A DNA stretch of 52,740 nt from Psammoneis japonica (GCA_008632985.1 QPGO01000094.1:292721-345460), one strand, 5' to 3'; shown: positions 6,333-50,259, counted from the stretch's first letter. Notes: generated by a model not told the origin, from the letters alone. Numbers and translations are program-made.

Positions 6333-6524
6333 AAAACATGATGCCCCCGTTATCCGAAAATGTACGTGGCATTTACTTGGAACGTACAGCGTATCATCAA
6401 GAATGGGGGGTCACTTTGCGACGCTACTTCTATTTTCGATTTTTTGGCGACGGCATGACGGCGGCATGCACTCGATGACACGACACACGATAGCACCCAA
6501 AGCAACAGAATATCCTCTTGCACC

Positions 6525-8910: not shown

Positions 8911-9103
8911 TTTGTTTGAATAAAGAGTCTAAAAGTGAGAGTCGGAGATGTCAGTGGGGTGTTGATGGCTTTCGTTGTCGTCGGCTTGGCAGGAGCAACT
9001 AGCAATCTATCTGCAAGTCGTCATCGTGGCGGCAGCATCGTGCGTGCACTCTCACTTCTGTACGCAAAAGAAACTCCTCAGCGAACATAATTCTCAACCA
9101 AAT

Positions 9104-10443: not shown

Positions 10444-10905
10444 ATAGACGAGCGAGTAGCAGCAGTGGTAGTGTAGCTAGAGCGTGTTGTTGTTGAAATG
10501 AGTGGTTCCTGTAAAGTCGTATCGCGTGCTTGTATGATTAAACTATGAATGCAGGGACGGGGTAGTTTTGTTCATTCCAGGTGGACGCTTCTTACTTGTG
10601 ACTCTCTTGTGTGCCGCACGCCTCTAGAGCAAGGTGCCGGATATAGTAGGGCCTTCTAGTCCATTACATCTCACCTGCCGGCAGCCCTACTAGCTCTACT
10701 ATTATACGTGGCGTTATGGAGAGAGGTGGATTCAAAAAAAAATTAATGAATGGAAAAGGTGTTGCTATTCAAAGGAGTTCACATTCGTATGACACGATTC
10801 ATCTCTAAGGTTCGTTGGTCTTTGTTACTTTTTTTATCGGTTTTGTAGGATGTATCTACTTGGGCTTTTAGAGATAGACCTAGCAGCTATGGTGTACAAC
10901 TATCT
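10431..10905 (+). repeat. TA-retaining copy of a ~480-bp segment (MTHFR 3' end and flank) duplicated at ~16118-16600
   Basis: Shared blocks such as gttgttgttgaaa.gagtgg.tcctgtaaagtcgt, gaatgcagggacgggg.agttttgttcattccag, aatgaatggaaaaggtg and gcttttagag. Confidence 0.85.
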
Positions 10906-11762
10906 CGACCTGCAGTACCCTCTAGCTAGAGTAAAGACTGCTAGCAGTGGAGACAGGTGCAGTAGAGTGGAATGACGAAAACAGACGTTCGAAGCGAAGA
11001 TATCATGCTAGCTCGTAATGTCCACTTTCCCACGCACAGAAAGCCCTCAAAGAAAGAGAAATTGCGTGACAACTACGTGGCAGATAGAAGAAAGCAAGCT
11101 CAATTTGCTTTCTCACACTCTCCGCTCGCTCACCACACAAACTCGGCAACGTCGGCTGAAACCAAAAAACATTGAACCTGACGTGATTGCGGCTGCAACA
11201 TTTCGGAAAAGATTGACACCAGAACAGCTTGATCATTTCATTCCACCCCGCACCCCGCCCTTATTTTCATTGGCCAGGGAAACTACCTGGCAGTACGCGC
11301 GCGTGAGAAGTTCACGTGCAACGTCACCCAGTGGCGCGGGGGAAGGGACAGACGCGGGGCAATGGCGGAACGGAGTCGTCATGCAGGCAGGAAAAGGGAT
11401 GGATTTCGAGTTGGGGTTTGATGTTTGCGATTGTAGTTTGGTGGAGTAGCGGGTTAGTTGGTCAGCGAGCGATTTGGTGATCGCGAGGCTCAGGCTCTGT
11501 AGACCCCATTGTGATGGTGTTGAGGAGTGGTGGGTCAGGCCAAAGGAGCACTCGGCAGAGATGGTTTGCCAGGTGGCGGTGGCAGCAGGGAGGATGACAG
11601 ACGGGGATTGTTGGGCGCAGGCGTGTGCAGCATGGGCAGCTGTGGTGGGGGAGAATGTGGTGATGTCATGGTTGCATGGCAGTTCATGTCTCATTCATCA
11701 CATTTTTGCATGAATGTTCTTGCACTCATTTGTGCATTTGCACACAAGTGCCAACAGCAGCA

Positions 11763-13758
11763 GGAAAAATCCTGAACCACATTCTCCCCTAAAACTCTGA
11801 CCACCAAAAACTGAGGGTGCAGAAGCACACTTTTGGCAGCTCTTTTCTCCGCACAAAAAACACGTGTTTTGACCACTCAACCATGACGGTGCCTCGTGGT
11901 TCTTCCCCATCGCCTTCCCAGGATGCCGATCCTGCTGACACCGTTGCTGATGACACTGATGCAACAGGTGATGTCATTGTTCCGGTTCTCATGGGTGTGA
12001 TGCATGCAAAATAAGATGCCACAAACTCACACTGTTGTTTGCATGCTCCACCGCCTCCCACAGATGCCATCACGAATTCCAAAGCCGCGCCTGCATTTCG
12101 GGCCCCCAGCATGCCCGACGCTGTTGCTCCTGTCCTCACTGCCGCAGGTGCTGTTGATGCTGTCATTGTCTTTTGCCAACAACGTCCACAACGAAGTGCC
12201 AACAACTCACACTTCTTTCATTCTCACCCTGACGCCTCCCACAGATGCCATCACAAATTCCAACGCCGCACCTGCGTTTCGGGCCCCTGGCATGCCCGAC
12301 ACTGTCACTCCCACCCTTGCTGCGCAGGTGCTGTTGACACTGTCATTGTCTTTTGCCAACAACACCCACAATGAAGTGCTTGTAACTCACACTTCTTTCA
12401 TTCTCGCCCTGCCGCCTCCCACAGATGCCACCACGAATTCCAATGCCGCACCTGCGTTTCCACCCCCTGGCACGCCCGACACTGTTAATCCCACCCTTGC
12501 TGCTGCAGTTGCTGTTGACACTGTCATTGTTTTTGCTTTGGAAGGAGCACAGTGGATGACGGCAGACCAGGAAACCCACGCAACCATGGCCTGCTGATGG
12601 ACGACACATCAATGGACATGAACAGCGCCTCTTGGTTGGCTCTCGAGTGCAGTCTGATCCTTGGAATGTGCAGACACATCATGTGGCTCCCTGCAAATTA
12701 GAAACCTGACAACAATCAGATGGCAGGCATGCTTTCACAGTTTTTTAGTTTCAAGTTGGAGAGGTCAGTGAATTGGTGTTTGTTTGCAGGCAACTTGGCA
12801 AGGTTTCAAGTGGTGCATGTGACTTGGACACTGCTCTGTTTTCCAGGACTGAGTCATCATGTGCAATTCCACAAGAGGCCACTCTCGCCATTTGAAGTCC
12901 ACACATGATGTGCAACATGCTGTTTTTGTAAGTTGCCAAAATGGAGGCAGGCAGCAACGTGCTTTTGGCAAATGCTTGCCATGTTTGTCGCTGTTGGACC
13001 TTCAAAAGTGGTGCCATGTCAACAGCTGTGCTGCCACTTTGCATGCCGGAACCTTCTGTGCCCGCACTCCATCAGTTGCATCCTCCTTCACATGTTGCTG
13101 CAGTTCATCTTGACACCTGTTGTTGGCTCCGATTGGTTCCACTGGGCTCTGGGTGAGTCTCAATCACCTCCAGATGGAGGAGGTTCTGCTTGGGAATGAT
13201 CATCCTGAGAAAAGTCATCACCACACCTCCCATCATAGATGCTCCTCTGCCATGCCCACGCCCACACAAGGAGCATCGACCAGTGCATCAGTGCTCGTTG
13301 ATCCCATGCCTTTGTTGTTCCAAGCAAAATCACCTCGCTCTGCTGCCACCAGGCCCGGTTGCACCCATGGCAGTCAGAGCACAAGTGGGATTGTTTTGCC
13401 TTGTTGTTGCATTGTGCTTGATTGCAGTGCTCAATGACAAATGGCAGCAATGTCGTCCACGGTCAATTTTAGATCCGGTGAAAATGGGCCCAAACTTCAG
13501 GATCGCAAATCTGCTGTGTTGGGGTTGCAACAGCGGGTTCAACGGCACTGGCCAGTGCAGGAGAGACTGCCATGTCAGGAACAGCAGGTGAGCATGCGTC
13601 AGGTGGTGTGGGGGACAAAGAACGGGAGGTCGTCATGGTCGAGTCGTCAAAACGCGTGATGTTTTGGTGTGTGCACTGTCTTCCAAAAAGTGCGTTTCTG
13701 CACCCTCGGTTTTTGGTGGTCAGAGTTTTGGGGGAGCTGTGGAACAGGAATTTTTGCT
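11763..13758. mobile_element. ~2-kb degenerate element with ~125-bp terminal inverted repeats (MULE/foldback-like)
   Basis: 11763-11888 (ggaaaaatcctgaaccac...aaaactctgaccaccaaaaactgagggtgcagaa...ccatgacg) is an imperfect reverse complement of 13631-13758 (cgtcatgg...ttctgcaccctcggtttttggtggtcagagtttt...caggaatttttg). No TSD and no transposase recognised. Confidence 0.65.
12020..12535 (+). repeat. Tandem repeat, ~180-bp unit x3
   Basis: cagatgcc anchor at 12061, 12242 and 12422; unit ends in ctgtcattgt(c/t)tttgc. Confidence 0.9.
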
Positions 13759-13931
13759 TGTGGAACACACACACACACACATGTGGACATCAACATTGAA
13801 ACTCAATGCACGGTGAAGCCGTGCGCGCGCAACCACGAACACACACACACAGCTCCCCCACCACAGGGGTGATTTCATTCATCACTTTGGGCCTCCTTTT
13901 GAATTGCCAACTGTCTTGCATTGGTTTTGAA

Positions 13932-14222
13932 GTGCATTCAACGGTCCAATGCTTTTACATTGAAAATGTTCATTGATCAATGTTTGCATGTTCCCTTTCC
14001 ACAAAAAGGCCCAGAATTCGCAATCGCGGCCCAGCAAATCGCAGTCGCGGCCCAGTCTCAACGCATTCAACGGTCCAACGCTTTCACATTAAAAATGTTC
14101 ATTGACTGACATTTGCATGTTCATTTTCTACAAAAAGGCCCAGAATTCTCAATCGCGGCCCACCAAATTGCAGTCGCAGCCCAGTCTCAATGCATTCAAC
14201 GGTCCAACGCTTTTACATTAAA
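13932..14222 (+). repeat. Tandem repeat, 129-bp unit x~2.3, with a partial direct copy at ~27831-27910
   Basis: gcattcaacggtccaa at 13934, 14063 and 14192. aaatgttcattga.tgacatttg..tgttcattttct...caatc.cggcccac recurs at 27856-27906. Confidence 0.85.
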
Positions 14223-14316
14223 ATTAGACGCGGCAATCATGATGTTTTCCGTTCGGTTTTGGCTGCACCGACACATGTCCTTTGTCCATCACAACACAAG
14301 CACCTGATGAAACAGT

Positions 14317-16080
14317 CTCTCAAGTGCAATCAGCTTGCATTTCATCACCCACTGCTGCATGGCCGGGTGTTGGTGGCTGCCATGCATTGGCTTTTGATCT
14401 CTCAAACTCGGCCTGAAAAGAAGGGTGCAAAGCATCCGTCAACAGCCCACATCCAAACCCATTGTGGGGTGTTCCCCGGCTTTTGCTGCAACTCAACTTT
14501 AGCTTCCACAGGGCTGTGCGGTCTTTTACTTCCCAACTTCACCAGTCTGAAGCAACGCCAGTCAGCGATGTTGTGAGTTTTGGCTGCCAATCACATGTGG
14601 TTTCATCACGTGTGATGCTGTGCCACTGGGAGATGCAACACCAGAAACTGCACCACCAGCAGATGCTCCAGTGCTCTTGCTTGTTCAGGAACAGCAATGC
14701 TGCAGCCTCCACGATGCCGCAGCCATCATCCCTCATTGCGAGGAGTGCAGAGCCGGAAGTCAAACATGCCGATTTTCTAGAGGGGTTCGGGACCGTCAAA
14801 TTGTTGCTGGGGCAATTGTGTCAACATGACATGGAAGAGAAAATGCCGTTGGCGGACGCTCACTTTTTTGGCAATCTTTGTTTCAGTTTTTTGGCACAAC
14901 AAACACAACATCACCATGATGGGTCGAATCACCACCTCGCCTTGAAACGGATCACTCAACCAACATGAGCAACGCGCTGCCTCAAATGGGGTGACATTGC
15001 CATGTTCCACTTCAGTGATTGCCTTTGCCACCGGCAAAAATGCAGAAATGAGTGACATGAATTTTCAAGATGAACAAACCGCTGAAACCACTTCTTGGCA
15101 AGAAGAAGCACACTGGATGTCCTTTCGACAAGCTGTGAAGCAATTTTCCTCATCTCGCCTGGTGCCGAAAAAGAATTTGATCAACAAACAGCCACAGACG
15201 TGTGACAACATTGCAGTTTCGTCATCGTTGTCAAGGCTGACAAACCAAGCACGAGCATGCCAGCATGACGATGATTTCTCCTTCTTGTCCTTGACACCCA
15301 GCAGCAGCTGCACGGACACCATCATTTCTGCCACTGACTTTTCATCCAAGCAAGAGCATTGTTCATTTGCATCTGAGACCACCAAGTCAAGTCCACTGTC
15401 ATTGGCATCAGATTTGGCAGAAACAAAAATGAGACTCACCCTTGCTCAAGTGGAGTGCAACAAATTGGAGTTTGCCTTGACACAGAACAAGTCAATGTGA
15501 GATGCACCCAAACACCACAGCACAAAGCACATTTTGCAATCCTGACATGGCTTCCCACGAGACTTGTTTTGGAGTGCAGCTTCCTGGAAAACAATGCTGT
15601 TGAGGCCTTTCTTGTTTTGTGTGGATTGCTGGAAAAATGGTGATGCTCCTGCCAGCCACGCAGCTGCGCTTCCTTCTTGCTCAGATGATGCCTCTTTCAG
15701 AACAGAGCATTCATTGACATGCGTCATGGAGGTCCTTGGTTGTTCTTGCTGGATCAGCCAGCACACGGGCAATTCTCCTCAAAGCATTGATTCAAAGCCT
15801 GCTGGCGCAGCGCAGTCCACTTGATGATGCTGCGTGGGATTCATCCAACTTGCGTGCCTGCGCTGTGTTCAAACAAAGTTGTGCTTTCTTCCGACTGCTG
15901 CATCCACAGTGTTTGATCTTGTTTTAACCAGATGGCTTCATTTCCCACAATGACAAAAAAGCTGAGCCAGCAGAAGGCATGGTGGTCTGGCAACGGCAAG
16001 TGAAGAACCGATTGGACGAATCAATGGCAAGTGGCAGATCAGTTTGAAAGCTTTGGCAAAGGCACATGCAAAACGTTCAA
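14317..16080 (+). repeat. Copy 1 of a ~1.8-1.9-kb diverged direct duplication (copy 2 at ~23858-25798)
   Basis: Shared tcagcttgcatttcatca, ctctcaaactcggcctgaaaag, ctcttgcttgttcaggaacagc, aagaatttgatcaacaaacagcc, cagaacaagtcaatgtgaga and atcaatggca.gtggcagatcagttt. Confidence 0.9.
14991..15500 (+). pseudogene. Mutated copy of a small Ser-rich protein with a coiled-coil C terminus (paralog at ~24590-25093)
   Basis: Both copies end ...SPLSLASDLAETKMRL(T/A)LAQVECN(K/E)LEFAL.QNKSM*. Reverting TG/CA to CG gives the more heptad-like AQAERDELEFAL (inference). Confidence 0.55.
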
Positions 16081-16117
16081 GTGCACATCGCAGAGAGCAG
16101 AGCCCAACGTCATGTCC

Positions 16118-16600
16118 AAAGGTGCTCAAGAGAGACAAGCAAGTGATGGCAGCACAGCCAGAGCATGTTGTTGTTGAAACGAGTGGCTCCTGTAAAGTCG
16201 TGTCATGTCATGCTTGCAAGATTAAACTTAGAATGCAGGGACGGGGCAGTTTTGTTCATTCCAGTTGATGCTTCTCATGTGACTGCTGGAGCATGGACAC
16301 TTCTCGTGCAGCTAACAGGAGAGTGTGTTTTCGTGTCATGCTTGTGTGATTAAACTTTGAATGCAAAAAAAGAAAGACTCTCTGTCTCTCTTTCTTGTGT
16401 GTGCTGCATGCTGGCAAGGTGCCGGGCACCATTGTCCATCTCAACCTTGCCTCCATCAGTGCACATGCCATTCTGGAATGAATGGAAAAGGTGCTGCTTT
16501 TTTAAAAAATGGAGTTCATTAGAGTGGCGCTGTTCATCTCTGCGGTTGCACTTGTGCTTTTAGAGTTCAAGACTGGCGGCCAAGCATTTGCAACCAATGG
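16118..16600 (+). repeat. TA/CG-converted copy of 10431-10905
   Basis: Examples: gacgagcgagta->gacaagcaagtg, tagctag->cagccag, gtcgtatc->gtcgtgtc, ggggtagtttt->ggggcagtttt. Confidence 0.85.
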
Positions 16601-19600
16601 CTGTCATGTGCGACTGTCTTGAGCTGGCAGAGACTCACAGGCAGGCACTGCATTCATAGATGCTGAGGGCACGTCCCCATGAAAAGTGCACCCACTTTGA
16701 AAATCTGGTGTCATTCTTTTCGTGCTCTTCACAACATTGTCGGCCAATCAGGGCCCACTCATCACATTGTGGATGACTGCATTTGGTGAGCATTTCATCC
16801 TCAAAATGTCTGCATCCTCAGTCATGATTGATTCTGACTCACATTCCCAGGAGACCTCATCATCCAACCCAACGTAATCCACGCTAAACTGTTCTTCCAG
16901 ACGGTTCTTGGCCATCTTCCACATTGCTCCAACAGTCCTGTCTTTCTTGCGTGCAACCAAGATCAGATGAAAGGGGGGGCAAAAAAGGTTTTGTGCCCAC
17001 ATTGTGTCCATCCACACATCTCCCTCCTTGAAAAAGAGTGCTGGTTTCGGAATCTCCAAGTGGCACTCGTGCATCAATCGCAAAACTTCAGATGGGAGTG
17101 CAGGGACAATGTGTCTCAAGACAAAGGTTTCAGGATTGAAAGCATCACACAGCTGTCATGCTTCTACTGTCATGTTGAAATCGATGCTTTGGAGTTGTTT
17201 CATGTCACATCTGGTCAGGTCGCAAGTGCCCGGCATCCAGCGCACCGCTCCATGCTCTGCAACAACTTTTAGATTGCCAAAATGAGTGAATGACAAGAGG
17301 GCGTGTTCTGGCAAATGTGGTGTGTCAACAAAGAGTTTCCCGACCCCCTCTTTGTCACAGAACAATGGAGGCAAGCCATCAACACCACCCAGATGAGTTG
17401 GCACATTTGTCTCATCCAATTGTTTCTGAATGAAAGTTGCACATGCATGTCCGTGACCACATGAGATGCAATTGTGCTTCTGTCTCTGCCAATCTGACCA
17501 TGAAGACGAATCCTCTCGACTTTTTCATCATTGCCATCATTTCTGCTTTCAGGGACAATGGCATCAAAAACCACAGTCCCCAGTGCATGACGATGACTGG
17601 CATCACTGACACGATCATGCCTGGAAAAAGGACAAATCGACGCACTGCAGATCAAATCATGCATTCCTTTCAAGTCCTCAGGACGCAGCATCCTGAGCAA
17701 ACACCAAGCCCGGCTCTGGAAGACCAAAAAACTCAATCATTCATTCCTCTGTGAACGGCAAACCAGTGAGACTGGGGCACTGGCAACCCAAGCTTCGTGA
17801 TTGTTCACAGCAATGCATGCACTCCGTGTCCAACATTCTTGCTTGCTCCACTCCACGACTGATGACACCAACTCTTTTGTGTCATGCCCTCTGCCAATCC
17901 CTCATTTCTGTTGCCGGGAATTCTCTGCAACTGCATCAAACACAGCAAACAACCAATTCCATGTTGCTGATTCACGTCCATTGGAGGCGCACATTGTGGA
18001 ACAGCAAAACCACAACAACTTCTGCACAGGCACGCAGAGATGCACCCGGGCTAGATTTTCTCTCTTGATTGTGTCACGCCTGAAAGCAAACTGAATTGAC
18101 AAAGAAGAGTCACACAGTTCTGGCACCGTACAGTGGCACAGCAAGGAGCGACAAGCTTGAGCAATCTCTGCTCCTGCGATGGCTCCATGGTGCATGCCGG
18201 CACAGCAGAGCAAGAGAAGTCAAAAACTTGCACCAAAAAAGCATGAGGGAGGATGGGCTGGTGCACTGCACACAAATGGTGCTTGCTTCTGACAAAGGGC
18301 CATCTCCCATGATTGATTTGGACTGTGCAGCACCTCAGCAGAGACAATGTCAGCAGGACCCAACTGCAAAAAAGCAAGAACTTGTTTTTGCACAAATGAG
18401 GAAAGTGAACGTGACAACCACAACAACAGCTGATGTTTGATGTTGCTTTTCTTCCCACAGCACTCACCAGCCAGCCAGAGGCTCCTGATTTCCATGTGGC
18501 AGAGGCAGATTTGAAAAATTCTTGAGAAGGACCACACCCCTCCACCAATCTCCCTTCCAGCATCCCTTGGCACCTTTGCATCTTGCTCATGGAAGGGGGG
18601 GGAGGCAACTTGCAAAGTCTGGCAACCAAGACAGTGTTGCTTGCTTGCCTTGTTTTTCAGCCCAGGCAAAATGAGATGCACAGCACACAAGCTGCTTTTG
18701 CAAGCACAGCTGCCAGAGCCAATGCTGGGCTGAACATGTGCTGGTGTGTTGGCCCCCTTTTGTCTGTCATTGTTCACTCACAATGATGATGATGACACAC
18801 GATGACACACACTGCCCTCTCTCCTCTTCACTTGTGCTTGGTGGCCCAGCAGCACCTGTTTAGAGCTTCAAACAGAAATCTGTTGTGACAGCAAGTTGCT
18901 CAAAGGTGAAGGAGTGATGTGTGTGCAATTGCCAGCAACACATCATGTCTGAAGAGAGAGAGGGGGTTGTTGGCCGGCCAGACATCATGTGGCCACTTGC
19001 ACATGTGACGGAGAAGACACACCACTTCACACACCAGCCAATTGGATTTCTTTGCCCACAAAGTTCTCTCAAAAGGACTCAGACTGGAGATGACTTTTTG
19101 CCAAAAAAAAGAGTGAATGGAATGGCAGCTTTGTCTTTGGTGTTTGGTTTTGCTCCCATGCCTTTTCTTGGCATTTGTTTGACTGCACAAAGTCACTCAA
19201 AACCCCAAAGCTTTGGTGGGAAGAGAAGTCATTTTCATTGGCAACACAAGGCCTCTGAGTGAAAATTCTTCCTTTTGATTGTTTTGATCTGTGGCAGCCT
19301 TGATTGTTGAGCCCAGCTTCTTTTTTTTTTTGCCTTTTTTGACAGAACAAACTTGCTGCTTGCTTCTCACAAAATTCCTGGACAATCTTCAGCTGTGGCA
19401 AGAACAAGTCATTTTGGCAAAACAAAGCCTCCAAGCAAAAAAATTCTTTCAGTGGCCTTTGGTTGCCATGTTGAGTTTCCATTCTTTGTTGTGCCCACTC
19501 AACTGCACATGCTTGTCACTTGCTCCTGAACAAATCTGAGAAAATCATTTTACAGTTTGACCCACAGCAGCCTTTGATTGCTGCACTGAGCTTCCCTGTC

Positions 19601-20810
19601 TCATTTTGGCACTTGCCAAACCCGGCAGTTCTTCTTTTGGAAAAACAAGTTGAAAAACAGTGTGCATGTCTGCATCAAAATTCTTCTTGGATGTTTTGAT
19701 CTGCAGCAGCCTTTGGTTGTTGTGTTGAGTTTCCATGTTTTTTGCAACACTCACTTCTTGACTGCATGACTTGTGGCTTCCCAGAGCTGAGGATTGAAAT
19801 TGTCCCACAACCCCTCAACTCAGAAGAAGTTTGTCTTTCAACCACATTGAGTGCATGTTATGGTCTGCCTTTTGTGCAGAAATGTGATGCACTGCTCTGC
19901 TCTGCTCCTGCATGTGCATCACATTCCAAAGAGCTTGTCATTTTCAAAATGAGTTGATCCTCCTGCAGAGTCTTGTCAAGCTCCAGTTGCAGGTTTGTTC
20001 AAGATGGACAATTCTTGTGAAGGATCTTCTTTCTCTTTCTCTCTTGCAATGTGGTGCTGCACACTGGCACAGTGCTGGGTGCAGCAGGGCCCTGTCACAA
20101 CTTGCCTGGCTGCGCTGGCACTCATGTCATTCTGAACAGAGCTGGGCACTCAGAAACCAAAAAATGAACAAATGGAAAAAGAGTTGATGTTGTCAAAGGA
20201 GTTTGCTTGCATGGCACAATTTGTCTCTGAGGTTCATTGCTTTTTTTGTCAGAATGTTGCTGATTTTGCAGGATGCCACACTCACTTGTTGGGCTTCTGC
20301 TGGAGGCAGAACCCAAGTGGCTTTGATGTGCAGGAGTCATCTTGAGCTGCTGGCACAGAGCAGAAGCTGCAAACAGGGAGACTGCTGCAGCCAGCTTGAT
20401 GAAAGCAGAGCAATGGGGACAGACACTGGAAGTCATGCAGCATTTGTTCCATCTGCAGTTAAAGAGAAATTGTGTGGCAACTGCCCCAAATGTTGGAAGA
20501 GACTGTGTGACACCAGAAAAAAGGACACACTCAAGCTGCTTTAATTCTTTCCACCTGCACAACAACAACAAAAAATCATCCAACAACACTGAAACAAAAA
20601 GTGACAAGGTGACTGTGGCATTTTCTTCTTGGTTTCAGCCAACATGCACATCCTTTGTGTCCATCCCAATTTTTCAGCATTGCAAAACAGCACCAACAGG
20701 ATCTTTTGGGGCTGGGGCTGTCCCATGTTCCATGTGTCTTTGAAGCTGCAACTGTCACAGTGTCCTTTGCACTGTGTTGTTCCAAGCTGTTGCAGTCTGC
20801 TTTTGTCAAT

Positions 20811-20970
20811 GCAGAAGCAACATGCAGCCCCACAGCTGTCATCACCATGTTGTCCTCTCTTGTCTTTGTGATCATCATGATCAATGTGGGCAAAAAGCAA
20901 CACACAGCCACACAGCTGTCATCACAACCATGCTGCCTTCTCTTGTCTTTGTGAACATCATGATCAACAT
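20811..20970 (+). repeat. ~80-bp tandem duplication
   Basis: gca(g/a)aagcaaca..cagcc.cacagctgtcatcac...tctcttgtctttgtga.catcatgatcaa occurs twice. Confidence 0.8.
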
Positions 20971-23857
20971 TGATTGCTGACTGCAACTTGGTCGGAGTTG
21001 TGATTTGTCACAGAAGAGCATGCACAGCTGGCTTGATGCTGCTCTTTGGCTCAGCTGTGTTGCATTTTGCCACAAGATCTCAACACAGCTGCCATCACAA
21101 CATTCTTGGTGCTTCTCTGTTGGGCTTGCCAGGAGTGTGCACAAAGCTCATGGACACATGCATTTGCTCATCAAGTGGCAGAGCTTTCCAGGTGTTGCTT
21201 TGAATTTGGTCTGGTTGTCTGTGTCACTGAGTCTCCCACCTGGAGAGCAAAGTCTGTCTCTTCTTTGTCAACAGTTCAAGCCATTCTTACAAAAGTGCAC
21301 ATGGCTTGCTGTTTTCATGTTCCAGGAAACCACGAAGCATGTTGGCTGGACATGCATTGTTTTTTTGTTCAAGCATGTTGACAGGACAAGAGCTGTCATC
21401 TTCTTCTTGTTCAACAAATGATTTTGTGATGTCACAGGCCTCATGGGATTTTTCTTGCATCTCATCATGTTGGGAGTGGCGCTGGCATTTTGCATTTGTG
21501 TGCACAGGACGGGGTGGATCGAACTTGTCAGCAACCAAGGGCAATCTGTCTTTCCTCACCAATGGTCATGTCAAGAAGCTTTTGAAGGCACCAACATCTG
21601 CTGAACTCAAGAAGGGTCAGTGTGCATGTTGCCACGACCATCAAAATTGACACATTCAGGGCAAAAATTTTAAAAGTTTGTTTCAATGATGACCGTGCCC
21701 CTTTTGCAATGTAAAAAAGAGCAGCGCACACAAGCAGCAAATGACTGGTGACCACCTTTTTCAGATGCTTCAAGTTTTTCAGTGATGTCTGTGATGGTGA
21801 TCCCTGGGGCACAACTTGTGAGATTCTGAAAGTGTGTGCTGTTGCTTGAAGTCTTGTGACAGAAGCAGGATGCCACCAAGATGTCAGACTGGGGAGGATT
21901 GCTGAGTGCATTGTTGCAGATGTGGTTGTGGGGTGTCTGGGTTCATTCTTTGTTTGATGGTTGCTGTCCAAGCAGCTCCATTCAAGCAAAATTGGGGGCA
22001 TGGATGGCAGCACTTTTTTGAACAAGAGTTTCAAGACAATGCTGACTGTCAAGCTCAAGCTTGTGTTGGCTGCACATGTGAGCCAAATTGACTCACCCAA
22101 ACTCAGCCCCCCACATTGTGGTGGAATTGCAAATGAAGTTGCTTCAAAGCTTGCCAGTGCAAAAAGAGAACCTTTTTTTAAAACCAAGATGTGCAAGAAT
22201 GATGGCCCCCAGACAGTTGGTGGAAAGAATTGAAGCCAGGCAGGACTTGTTCTTCTGCTGCTCATTTTGTGTGTTGAATGTTCAAGAACATTGGTGTCTT
22301 TTGCAAAATGCATGTTGGGTTGATTTGTCATTGCACTGGTCTTCTCCATCTCATGGCACAATGGTTTTGCTTGAACAAAGTTGGGGCTGCTTTTTAGCAC
22401 CAGCAGTGCCCACTCATGCCATCCCCTCTTTGAGTTGTTCACAGTTGTCACAATGCTGCAGACAGTTTTTTTGCCCTCTGGATGCCAGCTGGGCAGTGCA
22501 GAGAGCAGACCAACATTGACTTTGACTCATTGGAGACAATGTGACAACCAAACTGTTGCATCTTCCTGGTGCAAAAAGCAACAGACCATGAGAACAAACA
22601 GATGTTTTGATGAACATTTTGGCATTGTTGCTTGAAGCACAATTGTGGATTAAGAAGCACCCACAGCTCTCAGTTCTGGTTGAAGACATTGCAGCACCTG
22701 TCCAAACCTGTGTTCTCACAAGGCAACATCTTGTGTCTCTGCAAGGAGAGCTCTCACAAAAGCCATGCCACTGCTCATCCAAAGGCTTGTTTCAAGAAGA
22801 TTTTTTCTGTGGCTTGGGCTGCATCAGCCTCCTTGACATCAGAGGAGTTTGAGAGGTTCTGTGAGGGGATCTTTTCTGTCTTGGGAAGTGGGTGGGTTCA
22901 TGCTTTTGACATTTGAAGGATTCTGGCTTGATTGCATCACTTGAGACCTGCAGGAGGTCTCACAACGTGGCATCCTGCCACCACAACACAAATGTTGGTG
23001 TCAAGTGCCTTGAGCAGCAGCACATGTGCTGCTGCCACTGAGACACAGAGATGTCCTGCCATCATGGCAAGAGTTGCTTTGAATCAATTGCATTTGCCCA
23101 CAATGATGGAGAATGCCAGCTGTGGTGTTGTGCTGGTTCTTTTCCTTGTGGTGCATCTGACTCCCCCTTTCAGTGCACACTGAGCTGTCATTCTGAGGGC
23201 ATCCAAAATGCCTTGACAGTCAAAGCAGCCAACATTGATGGGAGCTCTGCAGGCTTTTGTGTTTGTTGCAATTGTGGTGGCAATGGGTTGTCTCTCAGTT
23301 GTTGCTCTTGTCATCCATTTTCTTGTGGTTCAATTTGTTGTTGAAAAGTGGTGCTGGAGGTGGCCAAAGCCTCTTGAGAATAAGAACATCGATGCTTTGC
23401 ACAGGGAGCAGAAAGAGAATTGGACATCAACAAAAAAGCAAACTCGATGTGTGCAAGCCCTGCATCCCCAATTTTGCAGGTGCACACTCTTGCACCCATC
23501 ATCATCCAAGGGAGGTTTGGCAACAATTGAGAAGTTGTTTGAATTCTCAATGGCATTTTCTGGCATTTGGCTCTGACTGCACAAAAAGCAAATCATCACA
23601 TTGGCGGTGGTGTGGTTTCTTCTGCCCAAGGTCATGAGCATGATTTGGAGCGACAGTGTCTTCTGTGCTGGCTTGATGTGCTTGTAAAATGGCAAACAGT
23701 TGATGTCTTTGCCTTGATCATTTCTCTTGAATCTGCTCTTTGCATGTCGTCCATTGAGAAAGCCCGGAGCCTGGATGTGGCATTTCTTGTTTGCTGGGAC
23801 CTGATCATGGCTGGCCCCAATGTGAGGTTTGCATGCCAATGCAACTGTTCACCCAAT

Positions 23858-25798
23858 CTCTCAAGTCAGCTTGCATTTCATCATCTGCTGTGCTGCAACT
23901 GGGTGGTTGCTGCCACATCGGCTTGCTGCTGAGCTCTCTCAAACTCGGCCTGAAAAGGACAAACCCATTGGCCCATGCTCCACGTCCGAATCTAATGTGT
24001 GGTGTTCCCCAGCCCTTGTGACAATTTGAGCTCAGCTTTTGCAGGACTGTGTGGTCTTTCACTTCCCAAGTTCTCTAGTCTGAAGTGATGCCAAGCTTCC
24101 ACCTCTTGTGAGTTGTTGCTGCTTTGCCAGAATCACACACGTGGCATGTCACACAATGTGATGCTGGATGCTGTGCCACTGGGACATGCAACACTGGATG
24201 CTGTGTTGCTGGCAGATGCTCTCGGGCTCTTGCTTGTTCAGGAACAGCGACGTTGCGGCCTCCACGATGCCGCAGCCAGCCATCATCCATCATCATCATG
24301 ATGCTGCACACAGCACTGTAGAGCTGGAGCACAGAGTTGCGCACAGACTCTCTCTGCCAGAGAGCCGGTGCTGATTTTCAGGAGGGGTTTGGGACCGTTA
24401 AATTGTCACTGGGGCAATTGTGTGCAGTGTGATGTTGAAGAGAACACCATTGTTGGACGCTCACTTTTTTTGACTTTTTTGGCATTTTTTTGTTTTGCAA
24501 CAACCAACACATCCACAATGATGGGACGAATTACCACCTCATCTTGCAACGACTTGCTTGACCAATGTGAGAGACGTGCTGTCTCAAACATGACATTGTT
24601 GCATCCCACTTCAGTGTGCACCGGCACATTTGCTGCCAACAATGCGGAAATGAATGACGTGAATCCACACAATGATCAAACCGAGACCACTTCTTGGCAA
24701 AAAGAAGCGCACTGCATGTCTTTTCGACAAGCTGCAAAGCATTTTGTCTCATCTTGCCAAGCACCAAAGAAGAATTTGATCAACAAACAGCCGCCGACAT
24801 GTGATGACATTTCAGTTTTGTCATCGTCATTGTCAAGGCTGACAAACCAAGAATGCCAGCATGATGATGAATTCTCCTTGTTGTCCTTGACACCCAGTGG
24901 CAGCTGCACAGACTCCATCATTTCCACCACAGACTTCTCATCCCAGCAAGGCTGTCATTCGTTTGCATCTGAAACCAAGTCGAGTCCACTGTCATTGGCA
25001 TCTGATTTGGCAGAAACGAAAATGAGGCTTGCCCTTGCTCAAGTGGAATGCAACGAATTGGAGTTTGCCTTGATGCAGAACAAGTCAATGTGAGACAGGG
25101 CCACACCTGAATGTTGTGACAAAGCGGGTTTTGCAATTCTGACATGGCCTCTCACGAGACTAGATTGTGAGTGTAGCTTCCTGAATGACACCGCCGACAA
25201 GGCCTTTCTCATTCATTGTGGATCGCTGGAAAGAAGAACAGCGACACTCTTGCCAGCTGCGCAGCTGCACTTCTTTCTTGCTCAGATGGTGTCTCCTTCT
25301 GAACAGAGCATTCATGCATCATGGAGGCCCGCCGCCATTCTTGCTGGATCAGCCAGCACATGGGCAATTCTCCTTGCAGCATTGATTCAAGGCCCGCAGT
25401 CCACTTGATGATGCTGGTGCAGAACCTGTCCAACATGCACCAGCTTTGCAATGCCCGCATCTTTGGTTGGCTTCACGTGCCGGCACAGAGTTCAACAAAG
25501 TCAGGCTTTCTTGAACTGTCAGTGATGCACCGACTGCCGTGTCCACAATGTTTGATCTTGCTTCAACCAGACACCTTCTTTAAACACAATCGACAAGAAC
25601 AAAGTTGAGCATCTACAGCGCTTCTTGATCTTGCCTCAACTGCGGTGGATGCCTTCTTTGATCACAACTGACAACAAAATGGCTGAGTCATGAGAAGGTG
25701 TGGTGGTCTGGCAAGGGTGAGTGGAAGACCGATTGGATGAATCAATGGCAGGTGGCAGATCAGTTTCAAAGCTTCAGCAAAGGCGCATGCAAAACGTT
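23858..25798 (+). repeat. Copy 2 of the 14317-16080 duplication
   Basis: Same shared blocks as copy 1, including the 24368-25093 ORF. Confidence 0.9.
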
Positions 25799-27442
25799 TG
25801 ACTCTGCGCTGCACATGCCACAATGAAGTGTTGAACATCAGTGTGTCTTTCCTGCAATGCCGGGAGCATTGCAGGCATCACTGCACTTCACTTCCAAAGA
25901 AGGTTTTTTTGGAACAGCATTTTCTGACTTGGTCTTCACAAGAACCCGACCTTGTGTCTTTTTTTGCTTTGAACGTGTTTTGGAACTTAGAAAGACGAAT
26001 TAGAACCAATGCTCTGTGAGCTTTGTTGCCATTGTTGTTGAGCAGTGCTGCTGTCACCTCAGCCGTGCAAAATGGGTTTTTGCTTTGTTGCCGCCAAAGC
26101 AATGTGCCAACCAGAACATCCTTCCACAACCCAAGCCCACAACAACGAAGGCCACCAAAACCACACTGACATCTCCAGCTCTCATTGAAACCTTTTCCGC
26201 ATGGCCCAAAAATGTGACAAAACAAAATCAGGTGCCATGACCACACAGCCTTTCTGCCGGCATGTCCTGGAGAGCATGTGAGCAGCATCGACACAGTGTG
26301 ACCCCACTCGAAGTCTGCCAGCCACTTCCTGAATTCGTCTGCAATCATTTGCTGGTGTCGCTTGTCTTGAGTCAAGGCCAAATCCATGTCGCTCTCCTCA
26401 GCTGCTGCTGCCTTCAGTTCAAACCTTTGAACTGGTTGCAGACACAAACTGGTGCATCACGAAAGCAAACAAACCTCCCGCTCCCTCTGTGAAATCCACC
26501 GACAAAACAATTGCAGGATTTCCTCAATGACAATGCCGCACTGTGTGCAACAGATGCTTTGGACGCACCATGCTGTTCAACATCTCTGGAGCCACAATTG
26601 GGGTGAGACACAGTTGACGACGCCAATGGCGAGGCAACATTGTTGATGAACCATCCCATCCTCTGTGCTTCCGTGCTGCACAGACACAAGTTCCTGGTCT
26701 CCTCCATGCCCTCATTGGTTCACTCTTCCACAAAGCTTGCTTGCTTCTCGAGACGGGTTCCAGTCCTGGGTGGGACTCCGTGCGACATTGGGCCCGTGGA
26801 ATTCTGCGTGCAAGCTCCACAGCAAATTTGTGCTGCAATGAAAACACAAATGATCGCCAATGGAAAAAGAGGCAATTTTACAAACGCATCTCCTTCTTCA
26901 TGCTTGGAGTGCATCATCAACAGTTTGCCCGGGTGTGTTCTCCAGACTTTAAAGAACACACCCAGCGCATTTTCATTCTCGCAAATGATGAAAACAGAAA
27001 GCCTTTGGCTTCGCAAAACAGGGAGCATGAAACAATTTCATAGAATGCAACACGCAGAAATGTGCGTGCGCGACATGCGACGTGATCCAAAAAACTGTTG
27101 ATGTCACAGTGCAGCAGCACGAGGTCCCACCCAGAGCTGGAGCGCGTCTCGAGTTGACTTGTTCAAGATGCTGTGTGTTCAGTTGCACGATGACTGCACA
27201 CTGCTGCATGGCTTGCCACTTGCTGCTTGTTGTTTGTTTTGTGTTTTTTGTCTTGCCATTGGCCATCGCCATTGCACATCGCAGCGGCAACACGGCAAAC
27301 AACACCCAAGACCGGCGGGGGAGATTCTCTCCCTGGCGCTCGGGAAAATGAATGTTGTCGTCACATGTCAGCAAAAGAATTTCATTCGTGCATGGCTGGG
27401 GGGAGCATTTCTCTCACCTTGCCCCACCCCGTCGCATCTCTT

Positions 27443-27662
27443 CACATTGTGGGGGGCATCTTTGGAAGTGAGATCGTCGAAGGCGGTCTGATCGCCAGCG
27501 CATTTGGGGGTTTTCCCAGTGCATTTTGTGCACGCCAGAGAACACATGGGATCTGTCCAGAGATCACAAATGCCCAATCGCACTGATTGACAGACTGTTC
27601 CAGTGCAAATTCCATGCAACTTTCTTCGACAGTCTCACTTCCGAAGACGTCCCCCAATTGTG
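27443..27662. mobile_element. ~220-bp MITE-like element with ~38-bp imperfect inverted termini
   Basis: cacattgtggggggcatctttggaagtgagatcgtcgaa (27443-27481) versus the reverse complement of 27625-27662, cacaattgggggacgtcttcggaagtgagactgtcgaa. Confidence 0.6.
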
Positions 27663-28111
27663 ACCATGCGGCATCCCATGGCCCATGGGACAAGTGCAAA
27701 TCAAAACACACACACACACAACACCAACAACACAACCTCGTGAAAACGGTTGCACACTGAATGACCTGCATTGCGGTCGTTGAGCTCCTCGTCAAAGCTC
27801 AATGCATTCTTCCTCTAATGTTGGGAAAAATCAACGCATCCAACGCTTCTACCGTAAATGTTCATTGATTGACATTTGTGTGTTCATTTTCTCAATCACG
27901 GCCCACAATTACACAGCGGTTTGCGCGAGAGAACGGTGAGCGTGTTTGTCTGTGTAAAAATTAATCGGGTGCGTCATAAATGTTAGGAATTAGGAATTTG
28001 TTAAACGGAAGATCTATGAAAAATGCACGGTATCACCGCACAAAAATATTTTCTTTCTCAGAACGGCCATCAAGATGAGGTGACGAACGCGAACTGCATT
28101 TCATGTAATCC

Positions 28112-28192
28112 ACCCAGACCCAGGAAAAAATGAGATATGTTGTTCTTCATGGTGTTATTGAGGTAATATGTCATTATTTCCTGGGTCTGGGT
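28112..28192. repeat. Inverted repeat with 27-bp arms (2 mismatches) and a ~27-nt loop
   Basis: acccagacccaggaaaaaatgagatat ... atatgtcattatttcctgggtctgggt. Confidence 0.85.
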
Positions 28193-28938
28193 TGTGCTGA
28201 TGTTTCATTATCGATATGGCTGACAATGGCGGACGGAATCTTGCTCGCCGGGTTTCTCCCAGTTCATCTGTGTAGAATTCTACGCAAAGAATGTACCAGC
28301 TGTCGGCATCAAATCTCTTGGCGGCATTAATGCTGGCGGTTGTAACTCCGTTGATCTTAGTTGTTCGCTCGGCGTCATGCTTGAAGTACCTTACATCCAT
28401 CAGTTCCCCAACATGTTGAACTACCGCATTGTGTAATATCATTACCTGAGTGGAGTCACGCAGACCAAAAATTTGGTTTTTCGAAACCGCTCGATCAACC
28501 ATGCGATTTGTCGTCGAGAAATCCACCGTCGGCCGAATAGATCAAGGATCCAGGCGATTCAATTGCAGGATCTCAGAGGTAGCTCTAGAGAGTAGAGAGA
28601 GAAGTAGTTGGCCCTCTAGAGTAGAGACTACTAGAGAGTAGAAGAGTAGATAGGTAGAGAGTCTACAACACCAAGACTCAGACAAGTACACAACAGCGCC
28701 GGCTCTCATACATCCAACAAGGAAAACTGTTGCAAAAGGCATCCATTTACCTTTCCATGAATTAACAGCAATCCAGTGGCCAACCTACGGTAGCAACAAA
28801 ATCTCAGTGTAGCTCGAATGTCCCGTAACACAGCGGCGGAGTTCAGGTAGTTTTCTTGTTATTATGATGCAATGGAAATGGAATCGGATACATCTTGCAG
28901 ACTGTACAGTCACGCATAAGCTTCGTCCACTCATACTA

Positions 28939-33024: not shown

Positions 33025-33614
33025 GCTGTGATTTTTTGTTGTGCTGGGCTATTTCAGAGGCACTCTGTATCGCTATGATATTCGTTCCGGGGTAGAAACT
33101 GAAGTGATGGGGGCTCCAACCTCCGTCTACAACACGACGACTGATCGGTTAGCGAGACCTGATGCCACCTTTGACTCCCCTGCGGATGTACAGCTAGTGG
33201 TATCAGTGACGACTCAGCAATCGAAACCAATCACACCTTCGAATGGCAATTTGCTACAGCAGGAAGCTTGCAATCCTTGACCTTGTTATGGAAATGGAAA
33301 GAGATTCAACGGCAATTCCCACATCCGTTCATTTATCGCCGTCTCTTTCGGTGAGAAGTTGGCGTGCCATCTCCACTTTCCCGCGCAAAATCCAGATCTT
33401 TGGATTATGTAATACTCATATTAAATCTTTAAATTGAAGATGCTCAACGGAAACTGTTATTAGACGACCTATGCGTTGGGCGAGTATAAATGTATTAATA
33501 TTCTATATAGATATGTTTGCATAATTGACAAGTTATCTCCATCATGAATATCATTATCCGTCACACATTGCCTCCACACGGTGGGCCCTACTTGTTCTTA
33601 CGGTCTGGGTCACC

Positions 33615-34522: not shown

Positions 34523-34559
34523 CTAGCAGTTTGCTCCTCTCTCTGACGGCGTCATCTAG

Positions 34560-50180: not shown

Positions 50181-50259
50181 TTTTTAGATTGCGTCATTTC
50201 ATGTCTATGGTCACTCTCTAGAGAGGGCGAGAGTTTGTAACATCTGGTAGAATTTAGAT

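What the first reader, a model, noticed from the sequence alone, without database searches (positions are those of the whole stretch)
11500..27950. Candidate repeat-directed TpA->TpG/CpA hypermutation ('reverse RIP') in a probable diatom
Seen: across ~16.4 kb of repeat-derived DNA the TA dinucleotide nearly vanishes (none in 14780-15924 or 27043-27815 by hand scan), while CA/TG are abundant and flanking genes have ordinary TA. Established: 5mC deamination explains CG->TG/CA but not TA loss, and Neurospora-type RIP (CpA->TpA) creates TA rather than removing it. Inference: a targeted A:T->G:C transition process at TpA acts on repetitive or silenced chromatin as genome defence. Candidate mechanisms are adenine modification/deamination at TpA, thymine oxidation (5hmU/5fU mispairing), or error-prone Pol eta-type gap filling at WA motifs. 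I know of no named system for this in diatoms but cannot check the literature.
Basis: partly seen in the sequence, partly recalled or inferred. Interest (0 to 1): 0.92.

Follow-up and report, generated by a model that had tools for sequence, protein, structure and literature searches.

The report
TpA-erasing hypermutation island in a diatom
A gene-free, partly repetitive 16.5-kb stretch of a diatom chromosome has had nearly every TA (and much of its CG) turned into TG or CA, the same unusual mutation signature reported so far in only one other alga, which points to a targeted DNA-editing defence.

Summary
In 11500-27950, TA has observed/expected 0.06 (66 found, about 651 expected at flank density). 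CG is 0.37, while TG and CA rise to 1.75 and 1.80, and G+C is unchanged. The edges are sharp, and a second block lies at 50256-52215.

Independently built read contigs reproduce the sequence with 0-2 differences per 595-1100 bases, so it is not an assembly artefact.

Paralogue comparisons show mutation rather than native composition. In normal-composition homologues, 8 of 10 TA appear as CA or TG in the block. Two in-block copies carry 41 TG-versus-CA double differences, against 4 or fewer for any other type, and a control pair outside the blocks has none.

TA loss depends on context: TAT and TAC are lost far more than TAG, and TAG more than TAA. It is equally complete in every sub-block, whereas CG loss varies from 0.06 to 0.67. 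I therefore read these as two processes: CpG decay plus TpA-specific A:T>G:C hypermutation.

It is no longer without precedent: a 2026 preprint measured TpA-only hypermutation in integrated viruses of Bigelowiella natans. I found no report for diatoms. The enzyme, the targeting signal and whether the process is still active remain inferred.

The parts
11300..27815 (.). Main TA-erased island. TA o/e is 0.03-0.09 in every sub-block and TG/CA o/e is 1.6-1.9. It holds no recognisable gene, RNA family or tRNA.
   Evidence: composition; 170 ORF queries (150 of the 154 ORFs of 70 aa or more, plus 20 partly overlapping longer ones) gave no Pfam hit above a curated cut-off; no Rfam family, no tRNA.
11101..11500 (.). 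Left transition zone: TA already thinned (o/e 0.28), CG still normal (1.04). A unique read contig ends at 11307, where high-depth sequence begins.
   Evidence: table 8 (record 1, 10553-11307, 0 differences) and table 2.
11451..14050 (.). Multi-copy repeat segment. It contains a 180-nt tandem array (12052-12536), a 129-nt tandem array (13934-14223) and inverted arms (11765-11908 / 13611-13754). TA o/e 0.07, CG 0.47.
   Evidence: summed depth 2397-6712 against 117-147 in flank bins.
14330..16080 (+). Copy A of an in-block direct duplication (partner at 23866-25800). The pair shows independent TG-versus-CA outcomes at the same sites.
   Evidence: 1713 aligned nt, 355 mismatches, 41 TG|CA double differences.
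23866..25800 (+). Copy B of the in-block duplication.
18201..23400 (.). Core where CG is also almost gone (16 CG, o/e 0.06; TA o/e 0.03; G+C 0.463).
26401..27815 (.). Highest-depth repeat at the right edge. TA is almost absent (3 TA, o/e 0.03) while CG is largely kept (o/e 0.67), so TA loss does not depend on CG loss.
   Evidence: summed depth 20545-37157.
10466..10592 (+). Normal-composition homologue, just outside the island, of in-block 16147-16275. Its TA sites read CA in the block.
   Evidence: 7 TA: 2 kept, 5 CA.
10737..10823 (+). Normal-composition homologue of in-block 20159-20245 (3 TA: 2 read TG, 1 reads CA).
8936..8989 (+). Normal-composition homologue (inverted) of in-block 26131-26184. 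It has no TA; 2 of its 3 CG read TG in the block.
50256..52215 (.). Second, unrelated TA-erased block (6 TA, o/e 0.05-0.07; CG 0.45-0.48; CA 1.82-1.89, TG 1.41-1.52).
   Evidence: One search found no similarity to block 1. One search found no Pfam hit.

Best explanation
The island is ordinary diatom DNA: gene-free, partly multi-copy repeats, partly unique or long-diverged sequence. After its internal duplications arose, it underwent two superimposed, heritable mutation processes at the DNA level.

(1) The usual CpG>TpG/CpA decay expected of methylated silent DNA. It has gone to different degrees in different sub-blocks.

(2) A much more complete, locally targeted A:T>G:C transition process that acts only on TpA. 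The A of either strand can be hit, so a TA site ends as TG or CA. The process strongly prefers T-A-pyrimidine (equivalently purine-T-A).

This is the same signature that a mutation-accumulation experiment measured in integrated viral DNA of Bigelowiella natans.

Most likely mechanism (inferred, not shown): an enzyme recruited to silent or foreign chromatin deaminates adenine in 5'-TA-3' of transiently single-stranded DNA to hypoxanthine, which is then copied as G. A TadA/ADAT-type deaminase is the leading candidate, because its natural substrate has U immediately 5' of the target A (recalled knowledge).

Shown here: the signature, its direction, its context, its independence in paralogous copies, its sharp confinement and its separation from CG loss.

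Inferred: enzymatic origin, deaminase identity, chromatin targeting and a defence role.
For: Composition and chance: (66 TA against 651 expected; edges within a few hundred nt).

Real sequence: contigs built from run X1 match 13844-14931, 15107-15767, 15751-16377, 24488-25082 and 25059-26156 with 0-1 other letters (plus 2 gaps in one record), at depths of 66-77, similar to unique flank contigs. This also excludes a mixed TG/CA read-out of a modified base.

Direction:
- In 3 normal-versus-block homologue pairs (265 nt), the 10 TA of the normal copy are 2 kept, 6 CA and 2 TG. The 11 CG are 3 kept, 4 TG and 4 CA.
- Of the 23 variant places listed inside the block, out of 40 rows shown with 1359 not shown, 6 have TA in other contigs where the window has CA or TG, and 7 have CG.

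Independent hits after duplication:
- There are 41 TG|CA double differences in 1713 nt between the two in-block copies, against 4 or fewer for every other double difference.
- Over six in-block pairs (2326 nt) there are 50 such differences, including between neighbouring units of the 129-nt and 180-nt tandem arrays.
- A control pair outside the blocks has 0 in 256 nt.

Ancestral composition (hand arithmetic): CG states 16 both kept, 47 one kept. This gives about 97 ancestral CG with 40% survival and about 17 CG-derived discordant sites. The other roughly 24 discordant sites need about 57-60 ancestral TA. Both figures are close to flank densities (97 CG and 66-68 TA per 1713 nt).

Mass balance: TA -585, CG -582, TG +577, CA +721.

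Context: relative survival is TAA 0.225, TAG 0.114, TAC 0.050, TAT 0.016 (chi-square 86.7, p about 1e-18). Sites with a pyrimidine 3' on both strands survive 1 against 395 in the flanks (0.005); TTAA survives at 0.58. TGY and RCA are the most enriched trinucleotides.

Separation from CG loss: TA o/e is 0.03-0.09 everywhere while CG o/e runs from 0.06 to 0.67.

Precedent: in B. natans, 230 of 231 new mutations in two viral regions were A>G or T>C, all at TpA, at about 1000 times the background rate. That genome also has 124 TpA-poor, CpA+TpG-rich clusters (10.64898/2026.01.13.699255, Results read).
Against: - No ancestral or consensus sequence could be built, because no whole genome is held. 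Direct TA>TG/CA evidence therefore rests on small numbers: 8 of 10 sites, 6 read variants, and 17 TA-versus-TG/CA sites between in-block paralogues.
- Some changes run the other way or sideways in the normal-versus-block pairs: TG read as CA at 2 sites, CA as TG at 2, TG as CG at 1.
- In the long in-block pair, a TA in one copy faces CA in all 9 countable cases and never TG. Two of these are TAC sites. This fits new C>T changes or a strand bias better than simple survival, and I cannot explain it.
- The flank baseline is mostly coding DNA, so context ratios are approximate.
- Run X1 is probably the sample the assembly came from, so it is not independent biological support.
- No viral or transposon protein remnant was found, so the 'foreign DNA' parallel with Bigelowiella is unproven.
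- The only natural ADAT2 with reported DNA activity prefers GAA for adenine, not TA (PMC10354150, passages read).
- Nothing here shows that the process is still active.
Confidence: 0.75

Rival explanations
1. The same targeted TpA>CpA/TpG outcome, but caused by modification of thymine rather than adenine. A TET/JBP-type dioxygenase oxidises T in TpA to 5-hydroxymethyl- or 5-formyluracil in silent chromatin, and the product mispairs with G, giving T>C.
For: TA is palindromic, so T>C and A>G cannot be told apart from sequence. The purine-T-A preference is just the mirror of T-A-pyrimidine. Recalled, not checked here: 5hmU in dinoflagellates and base J in kinetoplastids favour T followed by A.
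Against: No call here bears on thymine modification. No such base is known to me in diatoms (recalled). The Bigelowiella authors favour adenine deamination, but they did not test it either.
Confidence: 0.12
2. RNA-level A-to-I editing (ADAR- or ADAT-like) of transposon transcripts followed by reverse transcription, so that copies arrive already edited.
For: RNA editing enzymes favour U 5' of the edited A (stated in the Bigelowiella discussion). Parts of the block are multi-copy.
Against: - Both TG and CA are raised about equally in every 1-kb bin. That needs hits on both strands, whereas a reverse-transcribed sense RNA would give TG only.
- Neighbouring units of DNA-level tandem arrays differ by TG|CA.
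- No reverse transcriptase remnant was found.
- The edge zone thins gradually into unique DNA.
- The 3' preference is for pyrimidine, not the G that ADARs favour (recalled).
Confidence: 0.04
3. Native composition or selection: the sequences never had TA, or purged it by selection, for example to avoid a TA-cutting nuclease or TA-targeting transposons.
For: TA-poor stretches kept by selection exist in phages (earlier unrelated notes of this scan; leads only).
Against: - Homologous copies with normal TA exist just outside the island and in other reads.
- Paralogues show independent TG-versus-CA outcomes.
- The DNA has no detectable genes on which selection could act.
- The block comprises several unrelated sequences: block 2 has no similarity to block 1.
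Confidence: 0.04
4. Untargeted neutral decay: the species has a genome-wide TpA>TpG/CpA bias, visible only where selection is absent.
For: The flanks are gene-dense, so selection could hide a general bias. TA o/e is already 0.57-0.60 there.
Against: Non-coding flank DNA right at the edges is TA-rich: 10806-11085 and 27955-28300 have a TA about every 10-20 nt. The change of density is abrupt. A diverged duplicate in normal DNA keeps 7 shared TA and shows no TG|CA discordance.
Confidence: 0.03
5. Technical artefact: assembly, polishing or base-calling errors at modified bases.
For: Heavily modified repeats can mislead some base-callers (general knowledge).
Against: Contigs assembled separately from a public run agree with the window over 595-1100 nt stretches with 0-2 differences, at normal depth and without the bubbles that a strand-dependent read-out would cause. 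The flanks in the same assembly are normal.
Confidence: 0.02

Closest known systems
TpA-specific hypermutation of integrated viral DNA in the chlorarachniophyte Bigelowiella natans (Mettrop et al., bioRxiv 10.64898/2026.01.13.699255; abstract, Results and Discussion read)
   Same: A:T>G:C transitions confined to TpA, giving TpG or CpA according to strand. Confined to delimited regions beside normal DNA. Long-term footprint of TpA-poor, CpA+TpG-rich clusters that mostly lack annotation. Both organisms belong to the SAR supergroup.
   Different: - There the process was measured as new mutations in culture; here it is only a fossil footprint.
- There the targets are a giant-virus and a virophage insert that are still TA-containing (Rho TpA 0.45 for the giant-virus region). 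Here the target is gene-free, partly multi-copy DNA, with no viral remnant found, that is almost saturated (0.03-0.09).
- Here CpG decay is superimposed; that text does not mention CpG.
- A 3' pyrimidine preference is seen here.
Repeat-induced point mutation (RIP) of fungi
   Same: Transition hypermutation that riddles silent or duplicated DNA and leaves a dinucleotide footprint with sharp edges. Diatoms carry DNMT4 enzymes related to the RIP factor RID, whose function is unknown (PMC9998398, passages read).
   Different: RIP is C:G>T:A, typically CpA>TpA, and it raises TpA and lowers G+C. Here TpA is destroyed, the change is A:T>G:C, and G+C is unchanged. Triggering by duplication was not shown here, because the normal-composition homologues just outside the island are unmutated.
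5-methylcytosine deamination (CpG decay) in methylated transposons
   Same: It explains the CG>TG/CA half of the footprint. CG flanked by A/T is lost more than CG flanked by G/C (CCGG 0.66 and GCGC 0.65 against 0.18-0.27).
   Different: It cannot remove TA. CG loss varies tenfold among sub-blocks while TA loss does not.
Polynucleotide adenine deaminases (TadA/ADAT2-3; amphioxus BjADAT2 acting on DNA, PMC10354150; ADARs)
   Same: A>I read as G gives the observed transition. tRNA enzymes act on an A preceded by U (recalled).
   Different: BjADAT2 in E. coli preferred GAA for adenine and TCG for cytosine, not TA-pyrimidine. ADARs act on double-stranded RNA. No enzyme of this kind could be sought in this genome.

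Membership tests
Bigelowiella-type TpA hypermutation | Changes are A:T>G:C transitions located at TpA, giving TpG or CpA | tested here: met
   8 of 10 TA in normal homologues read CA or TG in the block. 6 read variants have TA against window CA/TG. Mass balance holds. This is a footprint, not new mutations.
Bigelowiella-type TpA hypermutation | Confined to delimited regions next to DNA with the ordinary spectrum | tested here: met
   Edges at about 11.1-11.5 kb and 27.8-27.95 kb, plus a second block at 50256-52215. Longest TA-free gap is 203 nt outside against 1147 nt inside.
Bigelowiella-type TpA hypermutation | Target is integrated viral or other foreign DNA | tested here: inconclusive
   170 ORF queries gave no Pfam hit above a curated cut-off. 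The longest ORF had 1 marginal hit among 1.84 billion representatives. No Rfam family or tRNA. The sequence may be too degraded, or never coding.
Bigelowiella-type TpA hypermutation | Mutation rate about 1000-fold above background, measured in culture lines, and active in only some lines | not testable with these tools
   Needs mutation-accumulation or population data.
Fungal RIP | C:G>T:A transitions (CpA>TpA) that raise TpA and A+T in duplicated DNA | tested here: not met
   TpA o/e is 0.06, and G+C is 0.484 against 0.477-0.481 in the flanks. The direction is the opposite.
Fungal RIP | All copies of a duplication are mutated | tested here: not met
   Homologues at 10466-10592, 10737-10823 and 8936-8989 keep normal composition while their in-block partners are mutated. 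These homologues are short.
5mC-driven CpG decay | Loss of CG to TG/CA, sufficient to explain the footprint | tested here: not met
   The CG deficit of 582 covers less than half of the TG+CA excess of 1298. TA loss is uniform where CG o/e ranges 0.06-0.67. It is met as a partial contributor only.
ADAR-type RNA hyperediting fixed by retrotransposition | Changes on one (sense) strand of a retroelement; 3' G favoured | tested here: not met
   TG and CA are both raised in every bin. The 3' neighbour preference is pyrimidine. No reverse transcriptase remnant. The 3' G preference of ADARs is recalled.
ADAT2-type DNA deaminase signature (BjADAT2) | Adenine hit at GAA, cytosine at TCG | tested here: not met
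   Adenine context here is T-A-Y. TCG is lost only slightly more than other NCG (0.31 against 0.38-0.46). Contexts for BjADAT2 come from PMC10354150.
Pol eta WA-motif mutagenesis | A>G at both TA and AA | tested here: not met
   AA o/e is 1.23 in the block against 1.13-1.14 in the flanks. The motif definition is recalled.

The most novel reading that the evidence does not exclude
Diatoms and chlorarachniophytes share an ancient, enzyme-driven genome defence. It marks silent or foreign chromatin and edits adenine (or thymine) in DNA specifically at T-A-pyrimidine, erasing TpA faster than methylated CpG decays. This would be a natural DNA adenine editor with RIP-like consequences but the opposite chemistry, possibly inherited from the common ancestor of the SAR supergroup.
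Probability: 0.3. Interest if true: 0.92.

Novelty: new member of a known kind. Interest (0 to 1): 0.72.

Why it matters
TpA-specific hypermutation has only just been described, in a single rhizarian alga, and its mechanism is unknown.

Finding its footprint in near-saturated form in a diatom suggests the process is widespread in the SAR supergroup rather than a curiosity of one species.

The footprint here adds three constraints for any candidate enzyme: a trinucleotide preference (T-A-pyrimidine), action on both strands, and independence from CpG decay.

Diatoms are ecologically dominant and several are genetically tractable. The question of which enzyme edits TpA in DNA and how it is aimed therefore becomes testable. 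A natural DNA adenine editor would also interest the base-editing field.

For annotation, such islands lose TAA and TAG stops and so produce long spurious ORFs. Their transposon or viral origin becomes invisible to homology searches.

Tried and rejected
- Whole genome: none is held. So no genome-wide scan, no family consensus and no proteome search for deaminases or TET/JBP enzymes.
No credible domain. Three weak hits (E 0.0017-0.0078) all fell below their curated cut-offs.
- Longest in-block ORF (21531-22526, minus strand, 332 aa) against 1.84 billion representatives: 1 hit at E 7.5e-4. Treated as noise.
- ORF 26607-27098 against the 5.8-billion protein set, to collect paralogous copies: none.
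- tblastn of all flank ORFs of 60 aa or more against both blocks: only 4 chance-level hits (E 0.001-0.006). No pseudogene of a flank gene was detected.
- An exact 28-mer of the high-depth repeat in metagenome contigs: 0 matches.
- Earlier notes of this scan by place, words and sequence: nothing relevant.
- RNA evidence: no RNA holder is listed for the stretch. Run X2 may be RNA-derived, but I draw nothing from its thin cover of the block.
- LTR-retrotransposon reading of the 14330-16080 / 23866-25800 pair: not adopted, because the 7.8 kb between the copies shows no gag/pol remnant.
- One row (11937-12353 against 12117-12534) was dropped because the two ranges overlap and aligned to themselves.
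- Literature searches that found no diatom report. The SPLASH paper and a 2026 phytoplankton mutation-spectrum preprint proved irrelevant.
They could confirm or contradict the 3' pyrimidine preference.

Full report
**What is there.**
The window is nuclear DNA of a diatom. An Hsp90-family ORF (44719-46512, minus strand) has its named best matches in diatoms (Synedra, Helicotheca, Odontella, Nitzschia, Epithemia, Cylindrotheca and others) at about 55-65% identity. Its best unnamed match is 85%. The flanks are gene-dense, with valyl-tRNA synthetase, peroxin-3, MTHFR, a long MFS-containing ORF, PI3/4-kinase, a glycosyltransferase and an M14 peptidase.

Between about 11.3 and 27.8 kb the dinucleotide make-up changes abruptly:

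| Dinucleotide | Count in 11500-27950 | o/e in 11500-27950 | o/e in the flanks |
|---|---|---|---|
| TA | 66 | 0.06 | 0.57-0.60 |
| CG | 352 | 0.37 | 0.98-1.01 |
| TG | 1797 | 1.75 | 1.14-1.16 |
| CA | 1842 | 1.80 | 1.12-1.13 |

G+C stays at 0.484, against 0.477-0.481 in the flanks. At flank density 651 TA are expected, and the Poisson log10 P is about -190. The longest TA-free gap outside the blocks is 203 nt, against up to 1147 nt inside. A second, unrelated block with the same make-up lies at 50256-52215.

**Is it real sequence?**
One public run (X1, probably the source sample) holds 77% of the sampled words. Its separately assembled contigs match the TA-free DNA almost perfectly:

| Window range | Other letters | Gaps | Contig depth |
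|---|---|---|---|
| 15107-15767 | 0 | 0 | 76.8 |
| 15751-16377 | 0 | 0 | 76.1 |
| 13844-14931 | 1 | 0 | 65.9 |
| 24488-25082 | 1 | 0 | 76.2 |
| 25059-26156 | 1 | 2 | 67.7 |

A unique flank contig has depth 53. If a modified base were being read as TG from one strand and CA from the other, the k-mer graph would split at every site. These long clean contigs argue against that. An assembly or base-calling artefact is therefore very unlikely, although the run is not an independent sample.

**What kind of DNA is it?**
Summed depth of contigs at least 80% alike is 2397-6712 in 11451-14050 and 20545-37157 in 26401-27700, against 117-147 in flank bins and 80-169 in 14051-26400. The tool warns that this is not a copy number. 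So the two ends of the island are multi-copy repeats, while the 12 kb between them is unique or long diverged.

The island holds two tandem arrays with 180-nt and 129-nt units, plus a 1.7-kb internal direct duplication (14330-16080 and 23866-25800, 79% identity). No gene could be recognised:
- 170 ORF queries gave no Pfam hit above a curated cut-off.
- The longest ORF has one marginal hit among 1.84 billion representatives.
- There is no Rfam family and no tRNA.
- Flank proteins have no pseudogene copies in the block.

Long ORFs here are expected by chance, because TAA and TAG are gone.

**Mutation or native composition?**
Four lines of evidence point to mutation.

1. Three short homologues with normal composition lie just outside the island. 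Of the 10 TA in them, the in-block partner keeps 2, has CA at 6 and TG at 2. Of the 11 CG, it keeps 3, has TG at 4 and CA at 4. Against a simple picture, the same pairs also show TG read as CA at 2 sites, CA as TG at 2, and TG as CG at 1.
2. Forty variant rows were displayed (1359 more were not), and 23 lie inside the block. At 6 of these, other contigs have TA where the window has CA or TG. At 7 they have CG where the window has TG or CA. At 1 the window has CG and the reads have CA. The other 9 are different changes.
3. The two in-block copies differ by 41 adjacent double changes of the type TG versus CA, while no other double change occurs more than 4 times. Over six in-block pairs (2326 aligned nt, one self-overlapping row dropped) there are 50 such sites, 62 CG-versus-TG/CA sites and 17 TA-versus-TG/CA sites. 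Some of these lie between adjacent units of the tandem arrays. A diverged duplicate in normal DNA (34406-34665 against 35463-35738, 256 nt) has none and keeps 7 shared TA. TG facing CA is what results when a self-complementary TA or CG is hit on opposite strands in two copies. The hits therefore came after the duplications, in DNA, and independently in each copy.
4. The mass balance closes: TA -585 and CG -582 against TG +577 and CA +721.

By hand, the CG states of the long pair (16 kept in both copies, 47 kept in one) imply about 97 ancestral CG with 40% survival. That predicts about 17 CG-derived discordant sites. The remaining roughly 24 need about 57-60 ancestral TA. Both ancestral figures are close to flank densities for 1713 nt. 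This suggests the copies had ordinary composition when they duplicated.

**Two processes, not one.**
TA o/e is 0.03-0.09 in every sub-block. CG o/e ranges from 0.06 (18201-23400) to 0.67 (26401-27815). CG flanked by G/C survives best (CCGG 0.66, GCGC 0.65) and CG flanked by A/T survives worst (0.18-0.27). There is only a mild extra loss at TCG (0.31 against 0.38-0.46). This looks like ordinary decay of methylated CpG.

TA loss is more complete than CG loss everywhere. If the island were at equilibrium, the counts would require TpA transitions to run about 28 times faster per site than the reverse G:C>A:T changes at TG/CA. That figure is hand arithmetic: 3639/(2x66).

**Context.**
Counting the 3' neighbour of the A on each strand, survival relative to the flanks is TAA 0.225, TAG 0.114, TAC 0.050 and TAT 0.016 (chi-square 86.7, p about 1e-18; 67 surviving sites in both blocks). 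Sites with a pyrimidine 3' on both strands survive 1 against 395 flank sites (0.005). Mixed sites survive at 0.067, purine on both strands at 0.313, and TTAA at 0.58. Matching this, TGY and RCA are the trinucleotides that rise most. The target is therefore T-A-pyrimidine, or equivalently purine-T-A. The flank baseline is mostly coding, so these ratios are approximate.

**Unexplained.**
In the long in-block pair, a TA in one copy faces CA in all 9 countable cases and never TG. Two of these are TAC sites, which should be good targets. They may be recent C>T changes in a process that has stopped, or a sign of local strand bias. TG-minus-CA asymmetry wanders between -0.20 and +0.17 along the block.

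**Mechanism.**
The following are shown: the signature, its direction, its context, action on both strands, independence between copies, sharp confinement and separation from CpG decay.

The rest is inferred. An enzyme aimed at silent or foreign chromatin changes A (or T) at TpA. I favour adenine deamination to hypoxanthine by a TadA/ADAT-like deaminase, because such enzymes act on an A that follows U (recalled) and because the Bigelowiella authors reached the same proposal. The one natural ADAT2 shown to act on DNA prefers GAA, so a standard ADAT2 is not an obvious fit. Thymine oxidation by a TET/JBP-type enzyme gives the same footprint and cannot be excluded.

Other candidates fit poorly:
- RNA editing followed by reverse transcription. 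Both strands are hit, tandem units differ, and no reverse transcriptase remnant was found.
- Pol eta at WA motifs. AA is not depleted.
- RIP, which runs in the opposite direction.
- 5mC alone, which cannot remove TA.
- Native composition and untargeted bias, for the reasons given above.

**Comparison with what is known.**
Seven full-text searches found no report of this in diatoms. They did find one close precedent: bioRxiv 10.64898/2026.01.13.699255 (abstract, Results and Discussion read; supplements closed). In a mutation-accumulation experiment with Bigelowiella natans, two integrated viral regions mutated about 1000-fold faster than the rest of the genome. Of 231 changes, 230 were A>G or T>C, and all of these fell on TpA. 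Only some lines were affected. That genome also holds 124 TpA-poor, CpA+TpG-rich clusters, mostly unannotated.

The diatom island shows the same signature at a far more advanced stage (TA o/e 0.03-0.09 against 0.45). It lies in gene-free, partly repetitive DNA and has CpG decay on top. Diatom DNMT4 enzymes are related to the fungal RIP factor, but their function is unknown (PMC9998398, passages read). Nothing here links them to TA loss.

**Verdict.**
It remains unproven as to the trigger (repeats or otherwise), the defence role and the enzyme, and it is no longer without precedent. I class it as a new member of a very recently described kind. It is of high interest because it extends that kind to diatoms and adds mechanistic constraints.

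Noticed in passing
window 50256-52215: A second, shorter TA-erased block (6 TA, o/e 0.05-0.07; CG 0.45-0.48) directly after the ORF that ends at 50180. It has no similarity to the main island and no clear terminal repeats.
   Followed up: partly
window 9768-9860 and 10168-10233: A contig of run X2 skips 9768-9860 inside the MTHFR gene region, which looks like a spliced intron, so X2 may be RNA-derived although it is labelled 'DNA?'. A 66-nt skip (10168-10233) stands in contigs of both X1 and X2. It may be an allele without that stretch.
   Followed up: no
window 14460-15925 vs 23993-25564: Where one copy of the in-block duplication has TA, the other has CA in all 9 countable cases and never TG. 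This is a strand asymmetry that the simple two-strand model does not predict.
   Followed up: partly
window 34406-34665 vs 35463-35738: A diverged direct duplication (about 70% identity) in normal-composition DNA. It was used as a control: it keeps its TA and shows no TG-versus-CA double differences.
   Followed up: yes
window 28939-33048 (minus strand): An uninterrupted 1369-aa reading frame in which only residues 584-777 match a family (MFS_1). The rest is unassigned.
   Followed up: no
window 23151-24450: Run X2 has one contig of very high depth (3818) that matches 23321-23855 only in pieces, with skips of 201, 30 and 190 nt. A related sequence is therefore abundant in that run.
   Followed up: no
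window 13964-14147 and 27856-27910: A 55-nt motif of the 129-nt tandem unit recurs at the right edge of the island. One read contig joins 27907 directly to 14146. This suggests that elsewhere in the genome the two island parts are adjacent or arranged in tandem.
   Followed up: no
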